64,000 bases of DNA, taken from positions 2,804,001 through 2,868,000 of the forward strand of contig NZ_CP178208.1 of assembly GCF_047219225.1 (NCBI RefSeq), written 5' to 3'. How positions within the stretch are numbered: position 1 is the first letter of the stretch; every line of letters begins with the position of its first letter. The position numbers were made by a program, and so were the translations under genes. The notes below the pieces were generated by a model. It saw nothing but the letters and a program-made list of their open reading frames with translations. It did no database searches and was not told where the DNA came from. This document shows positions 13,341-34,980 of this stretch, one piece after another. The DNA is from Pontimicrobium sp. IMCC45349 (GTDB lineage Bacteria; Bacteroidota; Bacteroidia; Flavobacteriales; Flavobacteriaceae).

Positions 13341-13551
13341 TTGAAGGTTCGTTTAACGGTCTAGTATAAGAAAAGTAGGGCAGTTGTATGCGTTACTTTT
13401 CGGATTAAGCTAAAGCCGAATTTTTAAATTTTGTTATTTATCTTTTCTCCTTTTAATATACCAAATTTAAAAATTTGGCGACTTGACAAATACGCACAGA
13501 CCTTTCGATTAAGCACTTTTTGCCCTATTTTTTTTATACATTGTTAGGCAC
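13341..13551. repeat. B-type cassette-flanking element, copy B1 (3' flank of the DUF262/HEPN cassette)
   Basis: It begins with GAAGGTTCGTTTAACGG, the same core as at 20758, 34026 and 53946. About 200 nt are homologous to 20755-20904. The inner end (tatacattGTTAGGCAC) overlaps the stop codon of the 13544..14050 gene and is the inverted partner of GTGCCTAAC at 15146. Confidence 0.8.
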
Positions 13552-14050
13552 TGGCTTCTTCTTGATTTAATTCCGTTTCAATGAACCTAATCACTTCTAT
13601 TGTTTTGTTTAAATAATTTTCCAATTTTATTATTGTAATGTCAGAATCTCTACCGTGTGCAATATTATGTCTGTCTTTTAAAATATAATTTATAGCTGCA
13701 CCACGATTTTCCTCTTGCAAGTAATCCCGTAATAAGTCGTGCCAATCAGGATTAAAGGACTTTGCTAATGCTCTTATTTTTTCACTATTAGCATTTTGTA
13801 TTTTATAGAGTTGTGATTTTGCATAAGTCAAAACAACAGATGGCTCACAACTATTTTCGGCAATATCAGTAAAAGCGTGGTAAACAGAATTTTCTATAAA
13901 TCCGGAACAGAGAACACAAATATATTTTGTTAAATGCGACCTCAATTCGTCATCAGGTTCGAATTCCTTGGCTTTTAATATTAATTGCTGAATACGATTG
14001 TATTGTATATTTAATTCGGGATTATTGAACATATTGATTAATATATTCAT
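13544..14050 (-). CDS. HEPN-domain protein (predicted RNase/toxin-type effector), partner of the DUF262 protein
   Basis: 168 aa with an R-x4-H HEPN motif (RHNIAHG) near the C-terminus. It overlaps the upstream DUF262 gene by 29 nt. Confidence 0.6.
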   Translation of the reverse strand: MNILINMFNNPELNIQYNRIQQLILKAKEFEPDDELRSHLTKYICVLCSGFIENSVYHAFTDIAENSCEPSVVLTYAKSQLYKIQNANSEKIRALAKSFNPDWHDLLRDYLQEENRGAAINYILKDRHNIAHGRDSDITIIKLENYLNKTIEVIRFIETELNQEEASA

Positions 14051-15116
14051 TGAACAATCTGTGTCTTTCTGCTACAACTTTATCATCTGAAGTAGCTCTA
14101 GTTATTGAATCAACAAAATCTTGATTTTGATATAGAGTATTTATGTTTTGGGCAAATGCCTCAAAATCAATATTTTCATCTATTCTGTTTGCTATTCCAA
14201 CCATTAAAACCTCAAATGCTGATGCATTAAATACTCTGTCTGGTCTAAATGCAGATTTGCCAATATTTTCAAGTATAATATCGGTAGTTCTTTTAAAAAT
14301 CGAACTTAATCTTTCTAATTCTTCTTCTGTTGGGTTTCTATAACGGCCATTAAACTTATTTAAAAACTCCTTTAGAGGTTTACTATATCTATCTAGCGAA
14401 TTATACATAGCAAAAAATCTCAATATCATTTCTTGGTCTTTAAGTCTATTATTCTTTTTACCGAATAATTCTCTCCAAGCTGGATAATCATTTAATTCTG
14501 CAATTAATTCATTCAACTTCCCAATATAAATTGCTGCTCTAATTTCTTGGGGTGTAAGTTTTCTTCCACCTGTATTTAATCGTTCAAAAACGTGATAAAT
14601 ACTGGTGTTATCATCAGTTGGTGTCTCTTGTTTAATTATTGTAGCGTGAATAATTGAATCATCAAGATTTATTCTGTCATCTTCTTCTAACTCTTCATAA
14701 GTTTTGCCTTCGAATTTTTCTTGAACGTTTTTGAGCCTAAATACTTTTTTTCTTGTATCTCCTTCTTTGGGATTGAAAAAGCCTTCATAGAAAAAAAGCA
14801 ATGATTTTAATCGTTGTTGTCCGTCAATTACTGAAAGTTTATTAGAATCACTCTCTTTGGCTAAAAATACTCCTGGTACTGGAAGTCCAAGCAATAAAGA
14901 CTCAACGAGTCTAGAAGCTTCAGCTTGATTCCAAACATAATCTCTCTGAAATGGCGGTATGAAAATGTCTCCTCTTTTAAGTCTTTTTACAAGTCCTTCT
15001 ACATCATAATCAGCTCCATAACTTGATATTCCATAAATTTGAGGTGAAGATGAATCTTCATTTTCTTCAACATCAATTACTGGGTCATCTATATCTTCTG
15101 TTTCGTATCCATTCAT
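14022..15116 (-). CDS. DUF262 (ParB/Srx-like nuclease-fold) domain protein
   Basis: Motifs FQRDYVW and VIDGQQRL are hallmark DUF262 (GmrS-like N-terminal domain) signatures. 364 aa. Confidence 0.75.
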   Translation of the reverse strand: MNGYETEDIDDPVIDVEENEDSSSPQIYGISSYGADYDVEGLVKRLKRGDIFIPPFQRDYVWNQAEASRLVESLLLGLPVPGVFLAKESDSNKLSVIDGQQRLKSLLFFYEGFFNPKEGDTRKKVFRLKNVQEKFEGKTYEELEEDDRINLDDSIIHATIIKQETPTDDNTSIYHVFERLNTGGRKLTPQEIRAAIYIGKLNELIAELNDYPAWRELFGKKNNRLKDQEMILRFFAMYNSLDRYSKPLKEFLNKFNGRYRNPTEEELERLSSIFKRTTDIILENIGKSAFRPDRVFNASAFEVLMVGIANRIDENIDFEAFAQNINTLYQNQDFVDSITRATSDDKVVAERHRLFNEYINQYVQ

Positions 15117-15145
15117 ATTTTTTATTTCTAAGAGTTTGTTTTTCA

Positions 15146-15262
15146 GCTTGTGCCTAACGTATTTATATAAACACGTTTTAATGGTTTATATAAAAGTGTT
15201 AAACGAAGTTAGCGTTTTTACGTCAGAAAATCAATACGTATAAATACGTAATTTTATAGTAT
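15146..15262. repeat. A-type cassette-flanking element, copy A1 (5'/promoter-side flank of the DUF262/HEPN cassette)
   Basis: ~110 bp near-identical to 24106-24222 and 34874-34980. Contains TTTATATAAA-N13-TTTATATAAA, GTTAAACGAAGTT (inverted partner of the B core) and TACGTA-N4-TACGTA. It lies 37 nt upstream of the start of the 14022..15116 gene. Confidence 0.85.
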
Positions 15263-15297
15263 TTGTTCCAAATTTGTATCAAACTAAGAAGGAGCAT

Positions 15298-15870
15298 TTA
15301 TCCTTTTCCGTATCCAAGCCAACTTACTATTAATTGATTAATAACAAAAACAGCAAGAATTATTATTAAAACATAAGAATACTTGATAATCTTTTCTTTT
15401 ATGGATGTTTTTTGAGTTCCATCAAAATGAGTAAGAGTTTTAATTACGTTTATAATTTTTGGTTTGTTGATGTAAAGAATTACTATTAGCATTAATAGAT
15501 ATAGTATAGCGCTCGCTAATGCTCCGTATTTATCAAGAAAAAAAATGTCAAATACAATTACATTTACCATTATTGGAATTAATATTAAGGTTCCAATTAG
15601 CTTTGTTCTATTAAAAAGAAGTAAAGTAGCACCTACAATTTGGCAAACTCCAATAAATAATACATAACCATATGAACGTCCCATAAATACCCAAGCTAGT
15701 TCAAAATTTGGGATTTGTTTTATAGGCATTGATTCTATGTGAGTAGGTATTAAATCTGGTGTGTAGAATTGTCCGCCAATTGCTTTTCCTAGTCCATATG
15801 CAGCAAGAAAAAAGAATACATAAAAACGACATACAATTTCAATAGTTTCTTTAATGTTGATTTTTTTCAT
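15298..15870 (-). CDS. hypothetical integral membrane protein (DoxX-like multi-TM)
   Basis: 190 aa with 4-5 hydrophobic helices. No catalytic motif. Confidence 0.45.
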   Translation of the reverse strand: MKKINIKETIEIVCRFYVFFFLAAYGLGKAIGGQFYTPDLIPTHIESMPIKQIPNFELAWVFMGRSYGYVLFIGVCQIVGATLLLFNRTKLIGTLILIPIMVNVIVFDIFFLDKYGALASAILYLLMLIVILYINKPKIINVIKTLTHFDGTQKTSIKEKIIKYSYVLIIILAVFVINQLIVSWLGYGKG

Positions 15871-15872
15871 GA

Positions 15873-17687: not shown

Positions 17688-17912
17688 TTTAGTATGGTTT
17701 TATAATTAAGATGAAGCAAGAATACTATCTAATAATCGTAGTTTAAAAAGAATGTGATTACTAGACCTTTCTATGTGGTAGATGTATGAAATAAAGTGAA
17801 ATATGTTATACTTCACATAAATATAGAGTTTGGTCACTTTAAGTACTTAGTTTAACCCATTGTAGGTTTTAAAACTATATAAAACCCTATTTTTGAGATT
17901 TAAACACTTTGG

Positions 17913-18944: not shown

Positions 18945-18951
18945 CTGTGTT

Positions 18952-19662
18952 ATGAATTATATAATAATTGATGATGAACCCGCTGCTATAGATGTTCTTG
19001 AGTTTCATCTTAGTAAGATTCCGTTTATGGAGTTAAAAGCAACATTCAGAGATCCTTTGGATGCTCTTGAGTATCTTCAAAAACACACTGTTGATCTTCT
19101 TTTTTTGGATATTAATATGCCAAAGATATCTGGAATTAAATTTCCTAAATTTTTAGAAAAAGCACCACTTATTATTTTTACAACAGCTTATTCAGAGTAT
19201 GCTTTAGAAAGTTATGAGCTTAAAGCGATAGATTATTTATTAAAACCAATTGGTTTTGAGCGGTTATTACAAGCAGTAATGAAAGCAAAAGAGGCTTTGA
19301 ATCAAAGTGCAGAAGGCGTAAGGTCAAACGCTGAAACTTCTCAAGAAAGACTTGAACAGACTGTTTTTATAAAAAGTGGTTCTGAGTTTCACCAACTATC
19401 CATTCAAGATATAAAATACATTGAAAGCGATGGTAATTATGTAACCTTCCATACAACCAAGCGTTCTATTTTAGCGCGTTATAAGATATCTGAAGTTATA
19501 GAGCTGTTACCTAAGCAGTTTTTTGCAAGAATTCATCGTTCCTTTATTGTAGCTATTAAACATATAGAAATAGTTAAAAAACATTGTGTTATTATAGATG
19601 AAATTGAAATTCCTATTAGTAGCAATTATAGAGATGATTTTTTAGCTATTATTCGCACATAA
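18952..19662 (+). CDS. LytTR-family response regulator
   Basis: REC domain (IIIDDEP..., LLFLDINMP) plus a C-terminal LytTR domain (FFARIHRSFIVAIKHI). It starts 8 nt after the kinase gene. Confidence 0.85.
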   Translation: MNYIIIDDEPAAIDVLEFHLSKIPFMELKATFRDPLDALEYLQKHTVDLLFLDINMPKISGIKFPKFLEKAPLIIFTTAYSEYALESYELKAIDYLLKPIGFERLLQAVMKAKEALNQSAEGVRSNAETSQERLEQTVFIKSGSEFHQLSIQDIKYIESDGNYVTFHTTKRSILARYKISEVIELLPKQFFARIHRSFIVAIKHIEIVKKHCVIIDEIEIPISSNYRDDFLAIIRT

Positions 19663-19686
19663 AGTTGTCTAGGAAAGACCTGTTAT

Positions 19687-20754: not shown

Positions 20755-20904
20755 GAGGAAGTTCGTTTAACGGTCTTGTATATGAAAAGTAGCGGATTTT
20801 ACACACTAACTTTTCGGAATATAACAGACTTTAAATTTATAAAATTCATTTTCGTTTAAGCACTAAAACAGCTATTTTTTATATACGTTGTTGTGTTTTC
20901 GTAC
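20755..20904. repeat. B-type cassette-flanking element, copy B2 (3' flank of the R-M cassette)
   Basis: It starts GAGGAAGTTCGTTTAACGGTCTTGTATATGAAAAGTAG..., homologous to B1 over ~150 nt. The inner end (atatacgttgttgtgttttcgtac) is the inverted partner of gtatgaaacacaacgtattta at 24106. Confidence 0.8.
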
Positions 20905-21013
20905 TTTATTTTTCCATTCTGCTGATAGCGTTGGCAAAGCCATACTCTTTTGCAATTTTTGGTGTAGCTGTGGATGAAGCGAATTGCAAATGTGTATGGC
21001 TTTTAGCGTTGGC

Positions 21014-22405
21014 TTATTTCAGATATATTTCGTCTTTCACATAACTTGCGTTTAGCCAAAAACAATGTTTTGTATATTCAGTCAAACCTGTTAATTTATC
21101 TACTACAGGTAATTCATAAGTATCTGCTGCATTTCTCGCGTGTGGTCTAACGTGACTAATTCTGTTTTCAGTTTTCTTTGGGAAATAAGTTTTTCTCACA
21201 CCTTTTTCAGTTACTTCTTTTACGATTTCTCCACTTTTAACTGTCTTTACCATTTCTTGCCAAACATTTTTGGCTTCAACAATATCAGAGTAGGGCATAT
21301 TCCAAAATTTCACTTTTCTTAAAATCAAATTTTCTCCCTCAAATTGATAAAAGACGAAGAAAAATTTACTTTCCAAAATGTTCTTAAAATCTGAATCTTC
21401 CCAATCTGTTTCAACAAGTTCTAGATATTCAAATGTAGGAAACGAAATATCTTCTTTTGGTAAATCATTTTCTTTAAGTCGAATAGTTTTGACTTGAATA
21501 TCTGCTTTTTCAAATTCCTCTATCTTTTGACCGAGTTCAAGTCCAAGAATAGCATTTGTAAGATTTGCAAAATAACTTTTAGCTTTCTGGTTTAATTCTA
21601 AACCCAATTCTTGTTCAATTTGTTCAGCGGATTTTCCATAAAATGGGTGGAATTTTAGAATTACTATTTCTTCTATTGAACGTACTTTTTCTAAAATTTC
21701 TGGCTGCTCAATTATTTTTCCATAAACAGCTGTTTCTTCTTGAGCAATATTTGCGATTATATGATTGACATAACCTTGTTTTAAAGAATATGCTCTTTGT
21801 TTTGCTTTTTCATTATTAAATGGCTGGTCTCTATATGATTTTAGAGCTGTTGAGCCTTTTGTACAAGCTCCAAGATAAAATGTATCTCCTTCTGATAATT
21901 CGTGAGCTTTTCCGTCTTTTATTTTTTGATTGATAAATTCCCAATCTTGCTTAATAATTTTTAAATCTTCGTTCGGATATTGCCAACCGTCAACTAACTT
22001 TATTATGTAGTCAAGTAAATTTAAATCTCTGTCGTGTAGATAGAATACTAAAAGTAAATGGGCATTTTTCTTCCAAAATGAACTAGTTTCAAACTCTTCT
22101 TTGTGAACTTCTAAATAATTAATGATATTTAAAACAAGTCTTTCTTTTGAACGATATTCTCCATTTTTTAAAGTTTTTAATGGACTTGATTTTAGTTCAA
22201 TTCCTGCTTCTTTAAAATCAGGTTCTGCATCAGAATTTGGTTCGTAACCAAAATAGAATTTTTCTAAAATCTGACCGAAATTTCCCTTTCCTTTATAACC
22301 GTGTTTTTCAATTTCAACTCCACAAGCTTGTCTTAAAGTTTGGTTTTTAAGTTGTTTTGCAAATTCTATTATTGAATCTGCCGAAGTTATATCAAGCATA
22401 TTCAA
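21014..22405 (-). CDS. type II restriction endonuclease, MutH/Sau3AI family
   Basis: The N-terminal block GKGNFGQILEKFYFGYEPNSDAEPDFKEAGIELKSSPL matches the MutH/Sau3AI catalytic signature D-x6-E-x-K. 463 aa. It overlaps the upstream C5-methyltransferase gene by 14 nt. Confidence 0.7.
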   Translation of the reverse strand: MNMLDITSADSIIEFAKQLKNQTLRQACGVEIEKHGYKGKGNFGQILEKFYFGYEPNSDAEPDFKEAGIELKSSPLKTLKNGEYRSKERLVLNIINYLEVHKEEFETSSFWKKNAHLLLVFYLHDRDLNLLDYIIKLVDGWQYPNEDLKIIKQDWEFINQKIKDGKAHELSEGDTFYLGACTKGSTALKSYRDQPFNNEKAKQRAYSLKQGYVNHIIANIAQEETAVYGKIIEQPEILEKVRSIEEIVILKFHPFYGKSAEQIEQELGLELNQKAKSYFANLTNAILGLELGQKIEEFEKADIQVKTIRLKENDLPKEDISFPTFEYLELVETDWEDSDFKNILESKFFFVFYQFEGENLILRKVKFWNMPYSDIVEAKNVWQEMVKTVKSGEIVKEVTEKGVRKTYFPKKTENRISHVRPHARNAADTYELPVVDKLTGLTEYTKHCFWLNASYVKDEIYLK

Positions 22406-23639
22406 ATTGGTTTATCTGTTTATAAAGTTCTACTCCAATTTTTTCAATTATGCCTACAACTAATGCATTTCCCATAAAAAAGGCTCGTTTAGTGTCTGTA
22501 ATTCCTTCCAATTTGGTGTGATTATCTGGAAACATATTTAATCTCTCTAATTCAATTGGTGTCAATCTTCTTAAACCTCTATCAGAAACAACTACGTGTT
22601 TAAACCTTGAAGGTGATTTTCCACCTTCTCCTGTTATTATTGTTCTAGAAGCATTATCTAGAGCGTCAGGATAAATCATTCCGCCTTCACTATAATTGTA
22701 TTCAAAACCTTCTTTTGTTTTTCTTTTTTCTTTTTTAGCACCTTTTAAATATTCCCATTTTGGTTTGTCGTTTTCATCAATGAAAAATTCAGGTGTTACT
22801 TCTCCGTTTTGTAGAACATCTGCTAAAACAGTTTTTTGCCCATCGTAATTTGGCTCTGTTTTAGTTGTGAAAACTTTATCATTAATTAATAAGCCTGTAT
22901 TTTGAAAAGGCGATAGCTTTCCATTCTTATTGAAATTGTCTGTTATTTCTACTAAATCTCCTTTTAATTCAACTTCTTGAATTGCATTTGTTTTTGCAAC
23001 AGGAAAAGCATTTGCTATTGTTCCTTCTTCTATTAACCAATTTGTTTTATTAGATTTTTTAAGTCTTTTGTAAACGTCAGTTGATTTGTGATAACCTATA
23101 AAGAAAACTCTACGTCTTCTTTGTGGCATTCCATATTCAGCTGCATTTATAACTCGCCATTCTACTGCATAACCTAAATCATTTAAACTTTGTAACATAA
23201 CAGCAAAATCACGACCTCTTTGTTTTGCTGGGGATTTTAAAAGTCTATCAACATTTTCTAAAAAAAGATATTTCGGCTTGTTCTTTTTGTTCTCTAAAAT
23301 TTTATGAATTGACCACCAAAGAACACCTTTTTTACCTTTTAAACCTTTTGAATTATGCAATGTAGTTGCAACAGAATAATCTTGACAAGGAAAACCTCCA
23401 ACTAATAAATCGTGATCTGGAATTTCTTCTACATTTCTTGTTACTACTTCGTTTATATCTTCGTTAGAATGATTTTCATTTCCAAAACGAGCTTCATAAA
23501 CCATTGATGCGTGTTGCGTTTTGGTTGACGGTTCCCATTGATTACTCCAAACAACTTCGTAATTGCTTTTTTCAAGTCCAAGACGAAATCCTCCAACTCC
23601 TGCAAATAATTCTGCAACTCTCATTTTCTTATTTTCCAT
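22392..23639 (-). CDS. DNA (cytosine-5)-methyltransferase
   Basis: Motif I (ELFAGVGGFRLGL), motif IV (GGFPCQDYS) and motif VI (ENV) of C5 methyltransferases. 415 aa. Confidence 0.85.
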   Translation of the reverse strand: MENKKMRVAELFAGVGGFRLGLEKSNYEVVWSNQWEPSTKTQHASMVYEARFGNENHSNEDINEVVTRNVEEIPDHDLLVGGFPCQDYSVATTLHNSKGLKGKKGVLWWSIHKILENKKNKPKYLFLENVDRLLKSPAKQRGRDFAVMLQSLNDLGYAVEWRVINAAEYGMPQRRRRVFFIGYHKSTDVYKRLKKSNKTNWLIEEGTIANAFPVAKTNAIQEVELKGDLVEITDNFNKNGKLSPFQNTGLLINDKVFTTKTEPNYDGQKTVLADVLQNGEVTPEFFIDENDKPKWEYLKGAKKEKRKTKEGFEYNYSEGGMIYPDALDNASRTIITGEGGKSPSRFKHVVVSDRGLRRLTPIELERLNMFPDNHTKLEGITDTKRAFFMGNALVVGIIEKIGVELYKQINQFEYA

Positions 23640-23937
23640 TTTCTTGAGCTTTATAATAGTTAATTTTTTCTTCTGCTACTTTTAATATTTCGGAAGTCGA
23701 TTCCGTGTATTTTAGTTCGTCTGCAATTTTTTCCGAATACCAATTTATGATAAGTTCGTTTTCGGGAAGTTCGTAAAACTTTGCAAGTCTTACGATTTGT
23801 TCCATTGTCGGTTTTCTTTCGTTTTTCTCGAATTTGCTAATCAGAGATTGATCAATATCTACTTCAGCTGCAACTTTTCGAAGTATCAATTCTTTTTCCT
23901 CTCTGGCACATTTTAAAGTGTCGCCTAATGTTTTCAT
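23629..23937 (-). CDS. XRE-family HTH transcriptional regulator, probable controller (C) protein of the R-M operon
   Basis: A 102-aa helix-turn-helix protein (LRKVAAEVDIDQSLISKFEKNERKPTMEQIVRLAKFY). It is the first gene of the C-M-R operon and overlaps the methyltransferase start by 11 nt. Confidence 0.65.
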   Translation of the reverse strand: MKTLGDTLKCAREEKELILRKVAAEVDIDQSLISKFEKNERKPTMEQIVRLAKFYELPENELIINWYSEKIADELKYTESTSEILKVAEEKINYYKAQENGK

Positions 23938-24105
23938 TGGTTAAAATTGTTTTAGACAAATATTGTCCAAATTTATAAAAACATTTTGGATTTCCAACTT
24001 TTAATTCGGATTATTTCGAGCGTTGGGAAATTTTAGCTCTTTTGGTTTTTAGAGCATTGGAAATTAGCGTTGGCAAAAACCAAAAGTGCTAAAATATGCG
24101 GCTGG

Positions 24106-24222
24106 TAGTATGAAACACAACGTATTTATATAAACACGTTTTAATGGTTTATATAAAAGTGTTAAACGAAGTTAGCATTTTTGAGCTTAAAAATCAATAC
24201 GTAGAAATACGTAATTTGAGTA
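24106..24222. repeat. A-type cassette-flanking element, copy A2 (5' flank of the R-M cassette)
   Basis: Near-identical to A1 and A3 (GTATTTATATAAACACGTTTTAATGGTTTATATAAAAGTGTTAAACGAAGTTAGC...AATCAATACGTAGAAATACGTAATTT). Confidence 0.85.
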
Positions 24223-28800: not shown

Positions 28801-30773
28801 GTAGAAAATATCAATGAGATATTATCGATAATTTTAGTAGCATGCGATGCATCTTCAATATCTAAATTTGAGACAATATCGATAAGCATTTCTAAATCTG
28901 CAGCGATTTGATTTACTTCTGCTTCTAAAGCCTTAGCAGCTACTACTTTTTTAATGTCTTGTAGTGCTTTTTCTTTGTCTGAGACACGTTGATGATAGGG
29001 TAGAAGTGCTTTCTCATCTAATAAAAACTGCACACAACGTTGTGAAATCTTATCATTTTGAATAACAATTTCTTCCTCTAGTGTGGAAATAAAAGTAGTG
29101 TCAACATAGCGAATATCGTTAAGACCAATAACTTCGCCTCTTAATGTTCTTAGCTGTGATAATACCAATACAAAATCTTCAATACTTTTAAAAGAACTGC
29201 TTTTAATTTTACCAAAAATATGACTCGCTTTGTCTTGTGTTTCTTTAGTAATATTTGCAGCTGTTTTACGAAGTTGTACCACCTTTTCAAACTCATCAAT
29301 TGCAGAGTTTGCTGCAGCATTGATTTCAAAAAGTGGTTCGTTGATTAAGAATGTATCTGGTTCTGTAATCCAATAATAGCTACTAAGAATATCGTTAGAG
29401 GCCTTTGCAATGTCATCATATAAACCATCAAAACTATCCTCTTTGTTTAGTAATGTTACTAAAGCTTGAGATTCTGCCATGGCTTTTACAATGTCTTTAT
29501 TCCCTATTTTATATAATAAAGTATCTGTATGTTCCGAAGGAATGGCTTCACCTTTAACAAATGGTGTTTGCCAAATTTGTATGACGTGGTGTTTAGTTTG
29601 TTCGTCTTCAGTTTTAAAGTAACATAGTTCACCATCTTTAAGAATGGTGTAACCGTTACATATAATAGGTGTTTTTACTTGTTGCTCAATAACATTGTAG
29701 GACATAAGTATGTAGAGTCCTTTTGTGCTTTCGTAAAAAACATATAAGTAATCCTCTCCATTAGGAGAGCTCACCGTTTTTTTAAACTTTACATTAGTAA
29801 TACCATTGTCAAAAAGTTTAAAATCACCAGATTGTAAATAATAACCACCGGCAAAAATAATACCTTGGTCATCTGGTAATAACAAACAGGCATCACCTAT
29901 ACTATCTATTTTTTTTACCTCCTGAATTTTATGGTTGTATACAAAATAGCGAGGTGCTTCTTGAAAAGGTTTAATTTCTAGAGCAATAAGGTTGCCTAAA
30001 TCTGCATAGCGATATTGACCATCATCTAATGTTTGGTCAGCGTGTTCAACAAGCTCACTATAAATACCTTTACCATCATCTGTGTTATCTTCTATTTTTA
30101 TAGTTAAGTCGCCTCCAATAGTTTCTACAAATACTTTATCTAATATAGAAATATGTGGATGCTCACCATAAACGTGTTGGTCTCTACTAGGCTCTACCCA
30201 ATTAAAAGCGTGTTGATTTGGGAATTTAAATTCATGTTCGCTTCGATTATCTATGTATTTAAGTGAACCATCATTTATTAACCATTTAAATGTTTTTACG
30301 TCAGTAACACTATCACTTAATTGAAAAACCATGTGTAGATAGTTTCCAACGATAGCAAACTTTGAAAAAACCGTATTTCTATAATATTTGTACAGATTGG
30401 TAAAATCGTCAATAAAAATAGCATCGTTCAATAAGTCCAACGATTGATTGACAAAGTGGTTGTCTTCGTAGGTATAGATGCTGAATACATCGTCTAAAGT
30501 AATGTCTGTACGAAGTCCAAAATGTACGTTATATCCAAATAGGCAAATATCACCAATAGTAACAATATCACGTGCTATACAGTTGTTTTCTGTATTAATA
30601 CGATTATTAGCAATTAGTTTAGTTTCAACATTACCAAAAACGGTTTTACGCGCTTCATTTAGTTGCGCTAATCGTGATAGAAGTTCACTTTTTTGTTTTT
30701 GTAGGCGTCCTTGAATAATTTCATAAGTACCACCATCAAGTTGTATGTTATTTGCGTCGTTGGGTTGTTCCAT
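25875..30773 (-). CDS. giant (1632 aa) protein with a C-terminal MoxR/AAA_5-type ATPase domain and a long uncharacterised helical N-terminal region
   Basis: Walker A LLISPPGYGKTTL and Walker B VMLYLDDIQH, followed by the AAA_5-typical ...FCVIMAGNPYTE (ATxNP-like sensor-1) and ANRADIY (arginine-finger region). About 1150 aa upstream of this have no recognisable motif. Confidence 0.6.
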   Translation of the reverse strand: MEQPNDANNIQLDGGTYEIIQGRLQKQKSELLSRLAQLNEARKTVFGNVETKLIANNRINTENNCIARDIVTIGDICLFGYNVHFGLRTDITLDDVFSIYTYEDNHFVNQSLDLLNDAIFIDDFTNLYKYYRNTVFSKFAIVGNYLHMVFQLSDSVTDVKTFKWLINDGSLKYIDNRSEHEFKFPNQHAFNWVEPSRDQHVYGEHPHISILDKVFVETIGGDLTIKIEDNTDDGKGIYSELVEHADQTLDDGQYRYADLGNLIALEIKPFQEAPRYFVYNHKIQEVKKIDSIGDACLLLPDDQGIIFAGGYYLQSGDFKLFDNGITNVKFKKTVSSPNGEDYLYVFYESTKGLYILMSYNVIEQQVKTPIICNGYTILKDGELCYFKTEDEQTKHHVIQIWQTPFVKGEAIPSEHTDTLLYKIGNKDIVKAMAESQALVTLLNKEDSFDGLYDDIAKASNDILSSYYWITEPDTFLINEPLFEINAAANSAIDEFEKVVQLRKTAANITKETQDKASHIFGKIKSSSFKSIEDFVLVLSQLRTLRGEVIGLNDIRYVDTTFISTLEEEIVIQNDKISQRCVQFLLDEKALLPYHQRVSDKEKALQDIKKVVAAKALEAEVNQIAADLEMLIDIVSNLDIEDASHATKIIDNISLIFSTINQLKAGLKNKLKSLGEKEASAEFAAQLKLVDQSIINYLDIANTPEKTDELLNKVSIQLEDLEGRFADFEDFISLIIEKREEVYNAFEARKNGLIEARNKKAISLETAANRILKGVAKKALNFKTTTEINGYFASDLMINKLRDIIENLKDLEDVGKAEAIETGLKVAKEDAIRKLKDTQDLYEDGETIIRLGKHKFGVNKQPLDLTIVFKDDTLKYHLTGTDFYQTIEDTTLLSSQKYWNQELVSENKTIYRAAYLAYKLFTNASQNLNSLDETALLQLIKNESSKNYSEGYIKGVHDEDAAQILQVLINKHHNLGLLRYTPLVRAFGQFFWYNLNSENKAHWNQKIKASGEVLSTFPESNEYKVILEALSHELKQSTVYDSLSKHYIKSNQTLELETASYLFEELQSDNTFCISKTAQELHDQFTKTLENKNALITFNNSVKTALNEQVISQAAVELVVQWVSSFIKLHAPQKTDYIYEIAALILFKSEATSNIIQVNPDAVIQNLKGTHECIQEGSFNFNYHDFTQQLQTFQTVEVPAYNAFRTAKHSVTETLKDSLKLEEFKPRVLSSFVRNKLIDKVYLPLFGDNLAKQLGSVGDNKRTDRMGMLLLISPPGYGKTTLMEYMANRLGLIFMKINGPAIGHEVTSVDPLTANNSAAREELNKLNLAFEMGNNVMLYLDDIQHCNPEFLQKFISLADGTRKIEGVYNGKPKTYDLRSKKFCVIMAGNPYTESGEKFQIPDMLANRADIYNLGDIIGDTADLFKLSLIENALTSNPILHQLSSKYFEDIYQLIETVESGNRENLELKGNHTKQEVEDYLAVLDKVVTIRNTVLKVNETYIKSAAMDDNYRIEPSFKLQGSYRDMNKLVAKVVPIMNNKELQILLLSHYENESQTLTSAAEANLLKYKELAETIDANELERWESIKATFIKNNKLKGFGNQNGMTQILAQMMQFSEHLEGIQDVLKSGLNKKS

Positions 30774-30967
30774 TCTTAAATTGTAATTGGATTTAAAACG
30801 TATAAATCTTAAAAGATGTGTTATTTAAACACTTAATCATTATGAAAATGAGAGGAACGAACGATAATAAATCTTAATTAGATTTTTTATTATTCTATAT
30901 CTGTGTAACAGCAATTCCTTTTAATAAATTAGATTAAATACACTCGCTTATAAGCGAGTGTATGATA

Positions 30968-33034
30968 TTATCCTAACTTCTTATCTAATAAACCTAAGCC
31001 ACTCGCAAGATTTGATAGGTTTTCAAATAAGTTTAGTTCTCCAGAATCTGTTGTTTTAGATTTTAAGTGTAATAACAAATTAGCAACAGTTACGTTTTTA
31101 ATGTCTTCGGAAGAAATGCCATATTTAGTAGCAAATTCTTTAATCTTTTCTAATAAGTTTCCTTTTACATCATCGCTACCTAAAATAGCTTCTTTAACTT
31201 CGGTAATATTATCAGAATGATTAATTAAACGATCTACACCTTTAGACTTCGTAATTTGTCCAATAATTTGATCGAAGAACATTGTTTCTCCACCAACTAT
31301 GTCAATGTTAGCAGCTCTTAATGCCTCACCAATTACTTGTGCTTGTGCATCTGCAATATCTTTTTGGATATTGATTTCTGCTAAGTCAACTTGTAATTCT
31401 TTATTTAAGCGTAGTTTAAACTCTTCGTGCTCTTTACCAACACCATCTAATTTCTTCATAGCATTAGCTTTTTCTTCAATTCCTGAAGCTTCAGCTAAGG
31501 CTTGTTCTTTAATTACTTCGGCTTGTGCTACACCTTCTTCTTTAATCGCTTCTGCTTTAGCTAAGATACCAGCAGCTTCCGCTTTAGCTTTCTTTTCTAT
31601 AATAGTTGCTTCAACCAATCCTTGACGCTCATTAGCATCGGCTTTAGCATGCATTACTTGAGCTTCAGACATACCAATAGTAGCTTCTTCTTTAGCTTTA
31701 GCTTCTGCTAATGTTTTTCTAGCTTCTGCTTCTTTTTCACTAGCTTGTTTCTTAGCTTCTGCCTCAATATTAATTTCTTCTGCTTTTTGCTTAGATGCTT
31801 CTTTTTCAGCTTCAGCAGCTTTAATAGTTTTAATTAATGATTCTTGAGCATTCGCTTCAGCAATCGTAATTTTTACTTGTTTTTCACGCTCAGCAGTTTT
31901 GAAAGCTTCAATATCCTTCATGTTTTCTTGCTCTTCAACCACACCTTTTTCTAACATTACACGATCGCGAATTACATCTTGGATACTTTTCTTTTCTACT
32001 TCAACAACCTTTTCTTTTTCAATTTGAGCAAGCGTAACAATACGTTCTCTTTCGGTAGCTTCTAACATTCTGTCTTTTTCTACACGTTCAGTTTCAACAG
32101 CATCTGTACGTTGCTTATTTTTTGCAGCGACAATAATTTGACGCTCCATATTTTCTTCAGCAACTTTTACTTTTTCTTCGGTAGAAATTCTAGCAGATTC
32201 AGATTTTAAACGTTCTTCTTCAGCAACTTTAATAGTTTCTGCCTCTTCACGCGCTTTAATATTAGCGATTTCACGCTTTTGTTGTTCTTCTTTTTCAGCT
32301 AATTGTTTGTCTAACTCTAAAATAGCTTCGCGTGCTTCAACATCTTGCTTACGAATTACTTTTTCCTCATCGCGCTTAATAAGGTTAGCTTTCATGTTTT
32401 GCTCAGCAGTAAGTTCTGTAATTTTTTTAATTCCTTCTGCATCTAAGATGTTGTCAGGCTTTAAAAACTGTACTGAGGTTTGCTCCAAGTAATCAATAGC
32501 ACAATCTTCTAAGGTATAACCATTAAGATCAGTTCCAATAATATCTACAATTTCATCACGGAATTCGCGACGCGCTTCGTATAATTCTACGAACTGGAAT
32601 TTTTTACCTACTGTTTTTAATGCTTCAGAGAATTTAGCTTCAAAAAGCTCTTCTAAAGTTGAAATATCTGAAGCTCTTTCGCAACCTACTGTTTGTGCTA
32701 CTTTTTTAATAAACTCTACTTCATTATTTACACGTACAAAGAAGGCTACTTTAATATCGGCACGCATGTTATCTTTACATAACAATCCGTTTTCTCCAAT
32801 ACGTTCTATTTGAATTTTCTTTACAGAAATATCCATGATTTCTACTTTATGAAATACAGGTACCACGTATAATCCTTTATCTGTAGCAACTTTAGTACCC
32901 TTAAATCCTGTACGTACTAAGGCTTCACCTTGAGGTACTTTTTTATAGAATAGTGCAATAATTGCAAAATAAATGATGATTAGAAAGAGGATAAGCCCAA
33001 CGCCTATACCAATAATTTGTGTGATGTTTTCCAT
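30968..33034 (-). CDS. flotillin-like SPFH/band-7 domain protein (YqiK-like) with a long coiled-coil/Ala-Glu-Lys-rich region
   Basis: N-terminal TM helix, an SPFH core (VRTGFKGTKVATDKGLYVVPVFHKVEIMDISVKKIQIER) and an extended EA/KA-rich repeat region. 688 aa. Confidence 0.75.
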   Translation of the reverse strand: MENITQIIGIGVGLILFLIIIYFAIIALFYKKVPQGEALVRTGFKGTKVATDKGLYVVPVFHKVEIMDISVKKIQIERIGENGLLCKDNMRADIKVAFFVRVNNEVEFIKKVAQTVGCERASDISTLEELFEAKFSEALKTVGKKFQFVELYEARREFRDEIVDIIGTDLNGYTLEDCAIDYLEQTSVQFLKPDNILDAEGIKKITELTAEQNMKANLIKRDEEKVIRKQDVEAREAILELDKQLAEKEEQQKREIANIKAREEAETIKVAEEERLKSESARISTEEKVKVAEENMERQIIVAAKNKQRTDAVETERVEKDRMLEATERERIVTLAQIEKEKVVEVEKKSIQDVIRDRVMLEKGVVEEQENMKDIEAFKTAEREKQVKITIAEANAQESLIKTIKAAEAEKEASKQKAEEINIEAEAKKQASEKEAEARKTLAEAKAKEEATIGMSEAQVMHAKADANERQGLVEATIIEKKAKAEAAGILAKAEAIKEEGVAQAEVIKEQALAEASGIEEKANAMKKLDGVGKEHEEFKLRLNKELQVDLAEINIQKDIADAQAQVIGEALRAANIDIVGGETMFFDQIIGQITKSKGVDRLINHSDNITEVKEAILGSDDVKGNLLEKIKEFATKYGISSEDIKNVTVANLLLHLKSKTTDSGELNLFENLSNLASGLGLLDKKLG

Positions 33035-33069
33035 GTTTATTATTTGGTTTTGTTTAAGATTTAATATGT

Positions 33070-33819
33070 TTAAAATTTGATGTCTTCGATGTTAACGATG
33101 CGCTCATTAGGATCTTCGGCTGGAAGTACCCAATAAAAGTTTTTATCGTCCGATTGTTTGATGACTACAATTTCTTGTTTGTAATCAATCGTATTTCCAT
33201 TATGAGATTTCGCATAAATTGAAATTGGGTTGTCGTCTACTATTATCTCAGCAGATCCCATTTTGTTTTTAGAGATTTTTGAGAGCATCAATCCCTTTCT
33301 GCCTATAAGATTAATTGGCGCATCACCATCTGGATTTAAGTTTTTGAAAAAACCTTTAAATGGCGATGTAAACAGTTTGGTTATTACTAAAGAAGGTACA
33401 ATACCTGCTAATAAAAGCGTATAACCATAATTTGTGTTATAAGACGATGTTAGTGTGGTTGCTATTACTGTGCATAGCCACCAAATAAAAATCCAAGATG
33501 TAAAAGTGAACATAAAAGGAAGTCCTACAAAGTTGAAGTAAACTAGTACCTGTTGCCACCATGTTAGTTTTTTTCTTGGGTCTTTTATAACATCTTCTTC
33601 ATTTATTTCAGCATTTGCAAGATCTGTAAAAGATGCTGTATCAAGATTAGCATCGACATCTACGTCAACATCAGCATCTATATCTACATCAACGTCTATA
33701 TCTAGGTCGAAATCTATACCAGAAATCATATTGAAAATCCAATAGAGAATTAAAATTATAACCAGAATACTTAGGGTTATGTTTACTTGAGAAAAGGCAA
33801 TGTCAATAACGTTATCCAA
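33070..33819 (-). CDS. NfeD-like membrane protein (YqiJ-type partner of flotillin) with an acidic (D-I/V-D) repeat
   Basis: Multi-TM middle region and a C-terminal OB-fold-like NfeD segment (GSAEIIVDDNPISIYAKSH...). It lies directly upstream of the flotillin gene. It carries a DIDVDVDIDADVDVDVDAN low-complexity tract. Confidence 0.6.
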   Translation of the reverse strand: MDNVIDIAFSQVNITLSILVIILILYWIFNMISGIDFDLDIDVDVDIDADVDVDVDANLDTASFTDLANAEINEEDVIKDPRKKLTWWQQVLVYFNFVGLPFMFTFTSWIFIWWLCTVIATTLTSSYNTNYGYTLLLAGIVPSLVITKLFTSPFKGFFKNLNPDGDAPINLIGRKGLMLSKISKNKMGSAEIIVDDNPISIYAKSHNGNTIDYKQEIVVIKQSDDKNFYWVLPAEDPNERIVNIEDIKF

Positions 33820-34020
33820 TGCGTGAGGCTTTTTTAAATGATGGTTTTTTTAAGTAAGAACTTGTAAACAATATTAAGTAATATTTTTCATATTATAAGT
33901 GGTGAATTATCATATAATTACAAGACTTATTAATATTACAAGTTTACCTTATAAGTGCATGTATTGATAAAAATGTTACAAGAAAAATTAAGTTTTTTTT
34001 AACTTTTTAAATGGAGGAGG

Positions 34021-34165
34021 ATTTGGAAGTTCGTTTAACGTGTTCGTGTATGGTTTGTGCGGAATATTCCGTGAGGAATATTCCGAGTGTTCTGTTGTTT
34101 CTTTAAAGTTAGGAAATTTAATTGAAGTTCATGTGATAGCATGAACTATACACGTTGTTAGGCAT
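34021..34165. repeat. B-type cassette-flanking element, copy B3 (3' flank of the Zn-ribbon/membrane cassette)
   Basis: It starts GGAAGTTCGTTTAACG. It contains twin palindromes GGAATATTCC x2 (34062-34084) and a perfect 8-bp hairpin AGTTCATG-TGATAG-CATGAACT (34125-34146). The inner end tatacacgttGTTAGGCAT overlaps the stop of the 34158 gene and is the inverted partner of ATGCCTAA at 34874. Confidence 0.75.
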
Positions 34166-34529
34166 TGGCTTCTTTATCACTTGATTCAAACCGAGATTCG
34201 ATTAATTTCATTTGATTTAATATATCAATAGGTTTTGAGGTTTCAGACTTATGTTTTTCCTGAGAAAAATAAAGAGATAGTAGTCCACCAACCAGAAATA
34301 TTCCAAATAGAGCAATCACTAAGTATTGATATCGAATGTCCTGAAATTCCGTACCCAATAACGTTATTAGGCAAGGAACACAAGCACCAAGAAATAAAAA
34401 TCCTATTTTATTAAATATATTAACATTTATATCAATTTCTCCTAGTTTATCTTTTATGAATTTCCATTCACTTATAGCAATTGGATAAGCTTTGCCTTTT
34501 TGATGAGACATTAATTCATATTCTTGAGA
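34158..34529 (-). CDS. small two-TM membrane protein (second gene of the Zn-ribbon module; start taken at the internal Met that avoids overlap)
   Basis: The ORF-track version (34158..34598) would overlap the upstream gene by 47 nt. The Met at 34529 (MSDNGNN...) removes the overlap. Two hydrophobic helices (IGFLFLGACVPCLITLLG, LVIALFGIFLVGGLLSLYF). The last codons (..EANA*) are encoded by the B3 repeat. Confidence 0.5.
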   Translation of the reverse strand, partial: SQEYELMSHQKGKAYPIAISEWKFIKDKLGEIDINVNIFNKIGFLFLGACVPCLITLLGTEFQDIRYQYLVIALFGIFLVGGLLSLYFSQEKHKSETSKPIDILNQMKLIESRFESSDKEANA

Positions 34530-34551
34530 TACCGAAAAGTTGTTTCCATTA

Positions 34552-34842
34552 TCACTCATCTTTCTTAGTTTTTTTAGGTTCAACTTTTGGTTTTTCAATA
34601 GCTTGCGAAACTAATGCGTTAACTAAAACAGTATTTCCACAATTATTACAGTTTACGGGAATTATTGGATAGATTGGTCCTCCTCCAATGACAATATTTC
34701 CTCCCTGAAATTGTCTTAATTCATAAACAGTATCGTTAACAGTCCAACTGTTAGAATTACACATTGGACAAGCTCTATTTCCCCATTTCTCATTTAAGTG
34801 TTTTAATAGCTTATCTAAATCCGGTTTGTTGTCTTCTGACAT
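34552..34842 (-). CDS. small Cys4 zinc-ribbon protein
   Basis: 96 aa with CPMC (aa 25-28) and CNNC (aa 65-68) pairs and a Lys-rich C-terminal tail. It is the first gene downstream of the A3 element. Confidence 0.55.
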   Translation of the reverse strand: MSEDNKPDLDKLLKHLNEKWGNRACPMCNSNSWTVNDTVYELRQFQGGNIVIGGGPIYPIIPVNCNNCGNTVLVNALVSQAIEKPKVEPKKTKKDE

Positions 34843-34873
34843 TATATTTGTTTTTTTGATTTAATTTTTGCTT

Positions 34874-34980
34874 ATGCCTAATGTATTTATATAAACACGT
34901 TTTAATGGTTTATATAAATTGTTAAACGAAGTTAGCTTTTTTAAGTAAGAAAATCAATACGTAGAAATACGTATTTAGGC
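34874..34980. repeat. A-type cassette-flanking element, copy A3 (5' flank of the Zn-ribbon/membrane cassette)
   Basis: Near-identical to A1 and A2. TIR-like GTTAAACGAAGTT at 34921-34933 and TACGTAGAAATACGTA at 34958-34973. It begins 32 nt upstream of the start codon at 34842. Confidence 0.85.

What the first reader, a model, noticed from the sequence alone, without database searches (positions are those of the whole stretch)
13341..34980. Three unrelated defence modules are each bracketed by the same pair of conserved non-coding elements, as if they were exchangeable cassettes
Directly visible: a ~110-bp 'A' element lies just upstream of the first gene of each minus-strand module, at 15146-15262, 24106-24222 and 34874-34980. 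These are the DUF262+HEPN pair, the C/M/R restriction-modification operon and the Zn-ribbon+membrane pair. A 130-200-bp 'B' element lies just downstream of the last gene of each, at 13341-13551, 20755-20904 and 34021-34165. Every B begins GARG(A)A-GTTCGTTTAACGG. Every A contains GTTAAACGAAGTT, the 12/13-bp inverted complement of that B core. The gene content between B and A is completely different each time (1.6, 3.2 and 0.7 kb), while backbone genes resume immediately outside. This conserved 3'-end/variable cargo/conserved promoter-end layout resembles integron cassettes or a family of docking sites for defence islets. Here, however, the copies are dispersed singly rather than in an array, and no integrase or transposase is in the window.
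Basis: seen in the sequence. Interest (0 to 1): 0.88.

Follow-up and report, generated by a model that had tools for sequence, protein, structure and literature searches.

The report
Integron-like gene cassettes at promoter hairpins
The repeats are real and mark a gene-cassette exchange system in marine Flavobacteriaceae: gene modules, each carrying its own hairpin site, sit in a conserved hairpin that appears to carry a promoter. This copies integron logic in a bacterial group thought to have almost no integrons, and no recombinase gene lies nearby.

Summary
The window holds three full A copies, one half copy and four B copies, at the stated coordinates.

A is a roughly 100-nt docking element. 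It has a Bacteroidetes-type promoter look-alike pointing into the cargo, followed by a hairpin with a conserved loop. B belongs to the cargo. It is a 48-195-nt hairpin site, and only its outer 13-15 nt come from the docking hairpin.

Each insert starts with (G/A)TTRnnnn. Its reverse complement (..YYAAC) opens its own B, and the pair differs from cassette to cassette (15 cassettes; covariation 0.66 against 0.16 in shuffles). This is what recombination between two hairpin sites through a circular cassette would leave.

Relatives supply the rest:
- A 98.6-99.4% identical pair with the site empty in one and filled by 1,750 nt in the other.
- Three docking sites with homologous flanks but different cargo.
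- The DUF262+HEPN cassette in Tenacibaculum with the same ends and unrelated flanks, heading a tandem cassette array.

Cargo is not defence-only. No recombinase lies in the window or in about 45 related loci, and I found no published description. My reading is an integron-like system with dispersed docking sites and a recombinase encoded elsewhere. Whether that recombinase is an integron integrase is open.

The parts
13343..13357 (-). Displaced 3' arm (R'A) of docking hairpin 1. Minus-strand reading: G|TTAAACGAACCTTC.
   Evidence: It is the complement of the R''A arm inside A1 (15198-15210).
13358..13551 (-). B1, the hairpin recombination site of cassette 1 (194 nt, family 2). Its R''c box GTGCCTAAC lies at 13543-13551 and overlaps the stop codon of the HEPN gene.
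   Evidence: ssDNA fold dG -28 to -32 kcal/mol, z -4.9 to -6.4. Boxes. A near-identical B follows the same cargo in Tenacibaculum.
13358..15158 (-). Cassette 1 (1,801 nt). It starts G|TTAGGCAC (15158 downwards). Genes: DUF262/NsnA-like 14022-15116 and RiboL-PSP HEPN 13544-14050, followed by B1.
   Evidence: Homology to Tenacibaculum locus L116 is 76.7% and ends within 16 nt (5' side) and 4 nt (3' side) of these limits.
15159..15256 (-). A1 docking element. Hairpin stem and loop plus R''A arm at 15159-15210. -7-like TAACTTCG at 15204-15211. -33-like TTG within 15227-15235. TACGTA-N4-TACGTA at about 15234-15250.
20757..20771 (-). Displaced R'A arm of docking hairpin 2 (G|TTAAACGAACTTCC).
20772..20898 (-). 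B2, the site of cassette 2 (127 nt, family 2). R''c AAACACAAC at 20890-20898.
   Evidence: It is 79% identical to the B of an unrelated cytochrome c peroxidase cassette in L006.
20772..24121 (-). Cassette 2 (3,350 nt). It starts G|TTGTGTTT. Genes: C protein 23629-23937, C5-methyltransferase 22392-23639, MutH/Sau3AI-type endonuclease 21014-22405, followed by B2.
24122..24219 (-). A2 docking element (hairpin plus promoter look-alike).
34025..34039 (-). Displaced R'A arm of docking hairpin 3.
34040..34165 (-). B3, the site of cassette 3 (126 nt, family 1). R''c ATGCCTAAC at 34157-34165 overlaps the stop codon of the 146-aa ORF.
   Evidence: Fold z about -8. Family-1 profile hit E 4e-16. Boxes.
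34040..34882 (-). Cassette 3 (843 nt). It starts A|TTAGGCAT. Genes: 96-aa Cys-rich protein 34552-34842 and a 146-aa ORF 34158-34598 of unknown function (no Pfam or PADLOC hit), followed by B3.
34883..34979 (-). A3 docking element. Its outer (promoter-side) edge faces the alanine symporter gene (35028-36413, + strand), a position kept in at least three other loci: two Winogradskyella and one unclassified Flavobacteriaceae genome.
53944..54078 (-). B4 (family 1) with its R'A arm, downstream of the WD40 gene (54081-55127) and the S41-peptidase/TPR gene (55128-56372). Its docking hairpin is not recognisable.
   Evidence: E 7e-25.
58431..58486 (-). Half A4: the R''A arm and the promoter look-alike only. 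The hairpin is lost, and the stop codon of the LytTR gene abuts it.

Best explanation
Coordinates below are read on the window's minus strand, which I call top orientation.

Docking element (A). Each copy consists of:
- an optional TACGTA-N4-TACGTA repeat;
- a Bacteroidetes sigma-A-like promoter, TTG-N20-TAACTTCG;
- a hairpin made of the R''A arm, a 2-4-nt spacer, a roughly 10-bp L stem, the loop CATTAAAACG, the L' stem, a 3-7-nt spacer and the R'A arm.

Cassette. A cassette is a circle that carries the cargo plus its own hairpin (B). B has the R''c arm, a 3-4-nt spacer, GTRTAT, a variable tip, ATAYAC, a 5-7-nt spacer and the R'c arm.

Event. A site-specific recombinase encoded elsewhere exchanges strands at the 3' foot of both hairpins, after the first base of R' (G|TT). 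The reaction probably takes place on folded single strands, as in integrons. Insertion leaves A-body|R'c-cargo-R''c-B-body|R'A. The docking promoter then reads into cargo that mostly lacks its own promoter.

Shown: the anatomy, the cassette-specific pairing, empty and filled sites, cargo turnover, and movement of the same cassette between genera.

Inferred: the circular intermediate, the single-stranded substrate, the class of recombinase, the exact crossover base, and promoter activity.
For: 1. Anatomy and folds. The reconstituted empty A site folds into a two-stem hairpin (z -7 to -8). Circularised B sites fold with a 9-bp closing R stem, an asymmetric internal loop and an L stem.

2. The A stem is kept by covariation. 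Nine of 11 pairs show changes on both sides. Covariation is 0.318 against 0.110 in shuffles (0 of 500 reach it) and at most 0.135 when the partner is slid. The loop CATTAAAACG is conserved.

3. Cassette-specific R boxes.
- In 12 of 14 cassettes, bases 2-10 have an 8-9/9 complement at the start of B, always followed by C-N3-GTRTA. In mismatched pairs the mean is 6.5 and 6 of 182 reach 8.
- Across 15 cassettes, 81% of cells pair against 54% in shuffles. There are 43 double-change cells against 14.5. Covariation is 0.661 against 0.158 (0 of 500).

4. Empty sites. L032, L002, L109, L054, L075 and the second L105 copy have both arms 44-51 nt apart around one hairpin.

5. Empty against filled. L109 and L019 are 98.6-99.4% identical, except for a 1,750-nt insert at the hairpin's 3' foot with GTTAAACG at both ends.

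6. Same docking site, different cargo, homologous flanks: L033 against L058/L077 (97%); L006 against L111 and L057 (83-84%); L011 against L018 and L070 (87%).

7. Same cassette elsewhere. Tenacibaculum L116 has the same start (GTTAGGCACAAGC) and end (..TTATACTAACC|G) with unrelated flanks. The homology matches the cassette limits to within about 16 nt. It is followed by a tandem array whose members each obey the R-box rule. The same cargo and start also occur in L118 and L119.

8. Crossover position. The first base at the left junction is A or G, and empty sites likewise carry either A or G at that position. At the right junction it is G in at least 12 of 14 cases; 13 of 14 if the two CCAAAAG-type junctions are re-parsed.

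9. Promoter.
- The invariant GCTAACTTCG and ATTGATTTT with a fixed 13-nt gap fit TTG and TAnnTTTG (PMC9723704).
- In 32 of 44 distinct A copies a sense ORF starts within about 200 nt of the hairpin, mostly within 20-100 nt.
Against: - No recombinase was found in the window or in about 45 true A loci, nor within 10 kb of the Tenacibaculum array.
- No circular junction was observed.
- Some cassettes break the R-box rule: L079a 6/9, L006 7/9, and no partner seen for the L019 insert.
- In some lineages the docking R' arm is not GTT-type (GATAAGCG, (G)AAAGCG).
- Tandem A-cargo-B-A-cargo-B units (L079, L017) and the duplicated A in L105 are not what repeated insertion at one site would give.
- How docking elements spread is unexplained.
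- B bodies differ between copies of the same cargo.
- One insert (L019) carries its main gene antisense to the A promoter.
- Promoter activity rests on a consensus match with one mismatch.
Confidence: 0.75

Rival explanations
1. These are ordinary integron cassettes: B is a true attC site, moved by an IntI-family integrase encoded elsewhere in the genome. The loci would then be CALIN or SALIN elements, or off-target insertions.
For: - AAC and GTT are invariant in cassette R boxes (15 of 15). GCCTAAC and GTTAGGC are the classical core sites (my own knowledge).
- The sites show R box, unpaired spacer, L box and variable tip.
- ORFs are sense with the site downstream, and the stop codon lies inside R''.
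- The crossover appears to follow the first base of R'.
- A tandem array exists in L116/L117.
- IntegronFinder earlier reported lone integrases (In0) in Bacteroidetes.
- IntI can insert cassettes outside att sites (abstract of 10.1101/2022.09.11.507474).
Against: - No IntI lies near any locus.
- IntegronFinder 2.0 names only Salinibacter as a complete integron within Bacteroidetes proper. A 2024 preprint counts Bacteroidota among clades without integrons. The B sites therefore seem not to be picked up as attC.
- The spacer geometry is asymmetric (3-4 nt against 5-7 nt).
- The L box is sequence-conserved (GTRTAT/ATAYAC), unlike typical attC sites.
- The recipient is a hairpin with a conserved loop and not an attI.
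- Several recipient arms lack GTT.
Confidence: 0.35
2. The host XerC/XerD recombinases, or another housekeeping tyrosine recombinase, move the modules, as in Acinetobacter pdif modules or CTX-phage hairpin integration.
For: - No dedicated recombinase is linked to any site, which suits a housekeeping enzyme.
- The modules are bracketed by inverted sites.
- ATAC-GTTAAAC resembles the XerD arm TTATGTTAAAT in 8 of 11 positions. This is my own comparison from a recalled dif consensus.
Against: - There is no 11-6-11 dif-like site with a conserved XerD arm.
- The R arms differ by lineage (GTTTAAC, GTTGAAC, GCTTATC, CTTTTGG) and by cassette.
- Each site is a full hairpin, which pdif sites are not.
- The dif site of these bacteria was not available for comparison.
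Confidence: 0.15
3. A and B are only expression signals: a shared promoter with a 5' hairpin, and a 3' stabiliser or terminator. Cargo differences would arise by ordinary homologous recombination of flanking genes after DNA uptake.
For: - A looks like a promoter and almost always faces a sense ORF.
- Complete A hairpins also precede resident genes (L054, L075).
- The hairpin followed by a T-run on the opposite strand could act as a terminator.
- The whole region between purC and the alanine symporter varies between genera.
Against: - It does not explain why each cassette's first 9-10 nt pair with the start of its own B.
- It does not explain why the outer end of B is the missing arm of the A hairpin.
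- It does not explain the base-precise empty and filled pair.
- It does not explain why the same cassette keeps the same ends in unrelated flanks.
- No Rfam family matches.
Confidence: 0.07
4. Each module is a non-autonomous transposon bounded by terminal inverted repeats, or an invertible segment flipped between the inverted A and B boxes.
For: Inverted 9-13-nt repeats lie at or near both ends of every module.
Against: - The inverted partner of the cassette start is internal, 48-195 nt from the far end, so it is not terminal.
- There is no direct target duplication apart from the shared GTT(AAACG).
- Cargo was sense to the A promoter in nearly every case, and no locus was seen in both orientations.
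- No transposase or invertase is present.
Confidence: 0.03

Closest known systems
Integron gene cassettes with attC sites, including clusters lacking an integrase (CALIN/SALIN)
   Same: - Promoterless cargo followed by an imperfect hairpin site with R and L boxes.
- ..YYAAC and GTTR.. cores.
- Cassette-specific complementarity between the cassette start and R''.
- Apparent crossover at G|TT.
- Stop codon inside R''.
- An external promoter reading into the cargo.
- Arrays (L116/L117).
- Defence genes among a diverse cargo.
   Different: - No integrase is linked to any of about 45 loci.
- The recipient is itself a hairpin with a conserved loop, fused to a promoter look-alike, and repeated at many chromosomal places, usually holding one cassette.
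- The spacer is asymmetric and the L box is sequence-conserved.
- The hosts are Flavobacteriaceae, where I found no published report of integrons.
Integrase-mediated cassette insertion at non-att genomic sites (bioRxiv 10.1101/2022.09.11.507474)
   Same: Single cassettes sit outside an integron platform, scattered in the chromosome.
   Different: Here the targets are a conserved, structured, promoter-bearing element kept across genera, not loosely defined short sites.
Acinetobacter pdif modules (Xer-dependent; from my own knowledge)
   Same: Discrete modules, often toxin-antitoxin or resistance genes, are bracketed by inverted recombination sites. No recombinase lies inside the module.
   Different: pdif sites are 28-bp double-stranded XerC/XerD sites on plasmids. 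Here the sites are 50-195-nt hairpins with variable arms, they lie on the chromosome, and one side carries a promoter look-alike.
CTX-phage integration through a folded single-strand hairpin by XerC/D (from my own knowledge)
   Same: A hairpin formed by inverted half-sites recombines with a chromosomal site through a single strand exchange.
   Different: That is a phage genome entering one dif site. Here many cassettes enter many docking sites.
Defence islands and integration hotspots
   Same: Variable defence genes sit between conserved core genes (downstream of purC, upstream of the alanine symporter).
   Different: The boundaries here are base-precise recombination sites, and the cargo is not limited to defence.

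Membership tests
Integron (platform plus cassettes) | An IntI integrase gene adjacent to the cassette array | tested here: not met
   No tyrosine recombinase in the window (Pfam). tblastn with XerD and IntI1 sequences, written from memory, found none in the window or any true A locus. None lies within 10 kb of the Tenacibaculum array.
Integron (platform plus cassettes) | Cassette sites with inverse core RYYYAAC and core GTTRRRY that pair with each other | tested here: met
   AAC and TT are invariant in 15 of 15 cassettes, and positions 3-8 co-vary. Examples are GCCTAAC/GTTAGGC and ACACAAC/GTTGTGT. Several do not fit the R/Y classes strictly.
Integron (platform plus cassettes) | Site folds into R box, unpaired central spacer, L box and variable terminal structure, with extrahelical bases | tested here: inconclusive
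   The R stem, internal loop, L stem and variable tip are present. The asymmetry is a 3-4 nt against 5-7 nt spacer rather than identified extrahelical bases.
Integron (platform plus cassettes) | Sites recognised by the curated attC covariance model (IntegronFinder) | not testable with these tools
   The model is not available here. Indirectly, published IntegronFinder surveys do not report cassette clusters in Flavobacteriaceae.
Integron (platform plus cassettes) | An attI recipient site next to intI, with a Pc promoter | tested here: not met
   The recipient A is a hairpin repeated at several loci and is not next to an integrase. A promoter look-alike is present, but its activity was not tested.
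Integron (platform plus cassettes) | Tandem array of cassettes | tested here: met
   Not in the window, where cassettes are single. Present in L116/L117 (3-4 cassettes) and L101 (two B sites after one A).
Xer-dependent modules (pdif, IMEX) | 28-bp site with an 11-bp XerC arm, a 6-bp spacer and a conserved 11-bp XerD arm | tested here: not met
   The arms vary by lineage and by cassette, and no conserved dif-like core was seen. The host dif site was not available, so the test is by inspection only.
Transposon or MITE with terminal inverted repeats | Inverted repeats at both termini and a direct target-site duplication | tested here: not met
   The partner of the cassette start lies 48-195 nt inside the far end. 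No direct duplication exists beyond the shared crossover bases.
Invertible DNA segment | Both orientations occur between the inverted repeats, with an invertase nearby | tested here: not met
   In 32 of 44 distinct A copies an ORF lies sense to A close to the hairpin. No locus was seen in both orientations, and no invertase was found.
Known structured RNA (Rfam) | A match to a curated covariance model | tested here: not met
   No hit at gathering thresholds over the window. No hit at E <= 1 over 13300-15300.

The most novel reading that the evidence does not exclude
This is a distributed analogue of the integron, native to Flavobacteriaceae. Dozens of promoter-equipped hairpin docking sites per lineage would capture and express single cassettes whose own hairpin sites form conserved families. 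The work would be done by an unlinked recombinase that is not a canonical integron integrase, making this a second, independent solution to cassette capture on folded DNA.
Probability: 0.4. Interest if true: 0.93.

Novelty: new variant of a known kind. Interest (0 to 1): 0.85.

Why it matters
- Integrons are the textbook device for capturing and expressing gene cassettes. The sources I read treat them as almost absent from Bacteroidota.
- This finding shows the same cassette grammar operating in marine Flavobacteriaceae (Tenacibaculum, Olleya, Winogradskyella, Gaetbulibacter, Lacinutrix and relatives). The platform, however, is dispersed: many small promoter-plus-hairpin docking sites, each usually holding one cassette, and no integrase next to any of them.
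- It gives base-precise borders to variable genes, including restriction-modification and DUF262-HEPN defence modules. It also explains how near-identical defence genes appear in different genera.
- It defines sequence signatures (the A element and two B families) that can be used to mine a cassette pool invisible to current integron finders.
- It makes the identity of the recombinase a directly testable question.

Tried and rejected
- An exact-sequence look-up of the window's purC product found nothing. The source genome is not in that collection, so same-species empty sites for the window's own three loci could not be examined.
- A viral-contig scan with the A pattern gave only chance hits; none matched the A profile.
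- Rfam gave no match.
- Reading B as a small ORF was rejected because the frame is not kept between copies.
- The opposite orientation model (cassette = cargo plus A hairpin, docking site = B) was rejected for three reasons. Empty sites carry the A loop. Alternative cargos at one site diverge right after the A hairpin. The Tenacibaculum copy shares cargo plus B but not A.
- The terminal-inverted-repeat transposon, invertible-segment and expression-signals-only readings were rejected, as set out under the rival explanations.
- Searches for a recombinase failed: tblastn with recalled XerD and IntI1 sequences, and Pfam tables of five cargo-anchored loci. The only hits were an unrelated IS21 in L118 and a XerD-like gene in L037/L096/L112, which are chance pattern hits without an A element.
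- I could not pair B4 with a docking hairpin. The best candidate cassette start, near 56577, matches only 8 of 10.
- Six literature searches found no description of this system.

Full report
**1. The observation**

The window has about 31% G+C and carries gliding and T9SS-type genes. Its core genes are 79-82% identical to Lacinutrix, Gilvirhabdus and other Flavobacteriaceae.

It holds three copies of a roughly 100-nt element A at the stated places. Gapless identity is 92% and 68%, and nhmmer E-values are 1e-32 to 1e-34. A half copy lies at 58424-58486. There are four B elements, the fourth at 53944-54078.

The B outer box and the A inner box are 12/13 inverted complements. The 13-mer is enriched: 15 hits against 4.1 expected, with 0 of 100 shuffles reaching 15.

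- Module 1 is a DUF262 protein that matches PADLOC NsnA and PD-T4-2_A, plus a HEPN protein.
- Module 2 is a type II restriction-modification system with a C protein.
- Module 3 has no match in Pfam or PADLOC.

No recombinase gene is in the window.

**2.

Read on the minus strand (top orientation), each locus has this order:

promoter look-alike, R''A arm, L hairpin | cassette start, ORFs, R''c arm, B body | R'A arm.

- The inner edge of A and the inner end of B are complementary, and the pair differs between modules: GTTAGGCAC/GTGCCTAAC, GTTGTGTTT/AAACACAAC, ATTAGGCAT/ATGCCTAAC.
- The outer end of B (GTTAAACGAAC..) is the missing 3' arm of the A hairpin.
- If the insert is removed, A closes into a two-stem hairpin (z -7 to -8).
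- If the insert is circularised, B closes into a hairpin with a 9-bp R stem, an asymmetric internal loop, a GTRTAT/ATAYAC L stem and a variable tip.
- In cassettes 1 and 3 the last codons and the stop codon lie inside GCCTAA.

**3. Relatives**

One genome-collection scan and one metagenome scan with the invariant part of A (GAAGTTAGC-N13-AAAATCAAT) returned about 45 loci that hold a true A element. All of the named ones are Flavobacteriaceae: Olleya, Winogradskyella, Gaetbulibacter, Lacinutrix, Gilvirhabdus and strain S0862.

(a) Empty sites exist. In L032, L002, L109, L054, L075 and the second L105 copy, both arms lie 44-51 nt apart around one hairpin.

(b) One site is empty in one genome and filled in another. 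L109 and L019 are 98.6-99.4% identical, except for a 1,750-nt insert at the 3' foot of the hairpin. GTTAAACG is present at both ends of the insert.

(c) The same docking site holds different cargo between homologous flanks:
- L033 against L058/L077 (97% flanks).
- L006 against L111 and L057 (83-84%).
- L011 against L018 and L070 (87%). This is the site next to the alanine symporter gene, the same site as A3 in the window.
- The purC-side site also holds other cargo in Gilvirhabdus and Gaetbulibacter.

(d) The arms of the docking hairpin co-vary by lineage: GTTTAAC/GTTAAAC, GTTGAAC/GTTCAAC, GCTTATC/GATAAGC, CTTTTGG/CCAAAAG.

(e) The L stem of A is kept by compensatory change. Nine of 11 pairs have changes on both sides. 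Covariation is 0.318 against 0.110 in shuffles, and 0 of 500 shuffles reach it. The loop CATTAAAACG is conserved.

(f) The cassette rule is general.
- In 12 of 14 cassettes, bases 2-10 have an 8-9/9 complement at the start of B, always followed by C-N3-GTRTA. The null mean is 6.5, and 6 of 182 mismatched pairs reach 8.
- Over 15 cassettes, covariation is 0.661 against 0.158 in shuffles (0 of 500), with 43 double-change cells against 14.5.
- The R''c positions were found by a complement search. They are, however, fixed relative to the L'' motif.

(g) B lengths cluster near 48, 127-131 and 195 nt. The short B sites (L111, L062) carry the same loop as the A hairpin, so A and B are one kind of site.

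(h) Cargo is diverse. It includes an amidohydrolase, a di-haem cytochrome c peroxidase, an epimerase, a GmrSD-HNH protein, DUF6090, DUF695 plus an esterase, and one insert with no ORF.

**4. The same cassette in other places**

Homologues of the module-1 DUF262 protein reach 84-94% amino-acid identity in other genera.

In Tenacibaculum sediminilitoris (L116/L117) the DUF262+HEPN pair starts with the same GTTAGGCACAAGC. It ends with the same ..CTTTTCTTATACTA(G)ACC|G after a near-identical B body. The flanks are unrelated. Nucleotide homology to the window (76.7%) runs from 16 nt before the cassette start to 4 nt past its end.

Downstream lies a tandem array. Each next cassette begins with GTT and pairs with its own R'': GTTAGCGGTC/AACCGCTAAC and GTTATAAAAA/TTTTTACAAC.

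The same cargo and start also occur in three further contexts (L118, L119/L120/L121, L113), with other B bodies. No integrase lies within 10 kb of the array.

**5. Mechanism**

The pattern is what recombination between two hairpin sites gives, one on the chromosome and one on a circular cassette.

- The first base at the left junction is A or G, and empty sites likewise carry either base at that position.
- The first base at the right junction is G in at least 12 of 14 cassettes (13 of 14 if the two CCAAAAG-type junctions are re-parsed), opposite the invariant C of R''c.
- This places the crossover after base 1 of R', as in the integron G|TT cut. It is an inference from polymorphism, not a measurement.

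Every site is a full palindrome-like hairpin rather than a short double-stranded core. This points to a folded single-strand substrate, as for attC sites or the CTX phage (from my own knowledge).

The invariant TTG-N20-TAACTTCG fits the flavobacterial sigma-A -33 and -7 boxes with one mismatch (PMC9723704). In 32 of 44 distinct A copies a sense ORF starts within about 200 nt of the hairpin, and the leader is usually 20-100 nt. A therefore most likely drives the cargo. Module 2 has its own 170-nt leader with a C-box-like palindrome.

**6. Open problems**

- The recombinase is unknown.
- Tandem A-cargo-B-A-cargo-B units (L079, L017), a duplicated A (L105) and a 12-nt repeat at two cassette starts (L101) are not explained by simple serial insertion.
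- Some cassettes lack a clear R'' partner.
- B bodies differ among copies of one cargo.
- How the docking elements themselves spread is unknown.

**7. Comparison with known systems**

This works like integron cassettes. Membership in the integron family is not established:
- No IntI is linked to any site.
- The recipient is not an attI.
- The attC model could not be run.
- Published surveys report essentially no integrons in this group.
- Xer/pdif, TIR-transposon, invertible-segment and pure expression-signal readings fit worse, as set out under the rivals.
- Six literature searches found no description. The library is limited, so prior work cannot be excluded.

**8. Verdict**

- I rate it a new variant of a known kind, with about a 40% chance that it is an independent system using a non-integron recombinase.

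Noticed in passing
window 25875-33819 (minus strand): An operon of a 1,632-aa protein (DUF3686 'ATPase involved in DNA repair', DUF7902, AAA_5) with 688-aa and 249-aa proteins that have no Pfam hit. It sits in the variable region but has no A or B site. PADLOC gave only a faint IetA-like P-loop hit. It may be an uncharacterised defence-like system.
   Followed up: partly
window 13300-35000, 36451-42400 and 44567-50153: The whole stretch between purC and the alanine symporter gene is 21.7 kb here. In Gaetbulibacter (L007) it is 6.7 kb with other genes. Two further blocks of the window are absent from the syntenic locus L022. The cassettes therefore sit inside a larger variable neighbourhood.
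   Followed up: partly
A copies, e.g. window about 15234-15250, 24197-24213, 34957-34973: A direct repeat TACGTA-N4-TACGTA lies directly upstream of the -33-like TTG in many A copies. It is missing in the Winogradskyella, L022 and L036 versions. It looks like an operator or an accessory protein-binding site.
   Followed up: no
L007 5589 onward; L079 (top orientation 4243); L071: A small extra hairpin, CTTGTGCTGAACTTG(C/T)TTCAG, is inserted into the loop region of some A hairpins in different genomes. It resembles a tiny nested mobile repeat.
   Followed up: no
L013 (Olleya sp. R77988) 4190-4638: A 449-nt cassette has correct R boxes and a family-2 B site but no ORF. It contains repeated GCGGAATT and GTGGAA motifs.
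   Followed up: no
L101 (top orientation 6555-9803): Two B sites follow one A. Both cassettes begin with the same 12 nt, TTACCAAACATT, and the first cassette's start pairs with the last B rather than with the nearer one.
   Followed up: partly
L105 3356 and 4746: A filled A is followed 1.39 kb later by a complete second A (promoter look-alike plus intact hairpin) with near-identical sequence. The unit reads A-cargo-A with no recognisable B.
   Followed up: no
window 32-1424, 17913-19662, 25040-25843, 56579-58407: The 64-kb window holds three His_kinase plus LytTR response-regulator pairs and one lone LytTR protein. One pair ends exactly at the truncated A4.
   Followed up: no
window 53944-58486: B4 and the half A4 bracket a WD40 protein and an S41 peptidase/TPR pair on the minus strand, plus a His_kinase/LytTR pair on the plus strand. 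This may be a decayed or rearranged cassette locus. The best candidate cassette start, near 56577, matches only 8 of 10.
   Followed up: partly
L115 (Maribacter sp. ACAM166) 6001-7620: The same DUF262+HEPN cargo is present at 90% amino-acid identity, but only a decayed R'' box (GTGCCTGAC) remains and no A or B site. It looks like a cassette that has been fixed in place.
   Followed up: partly
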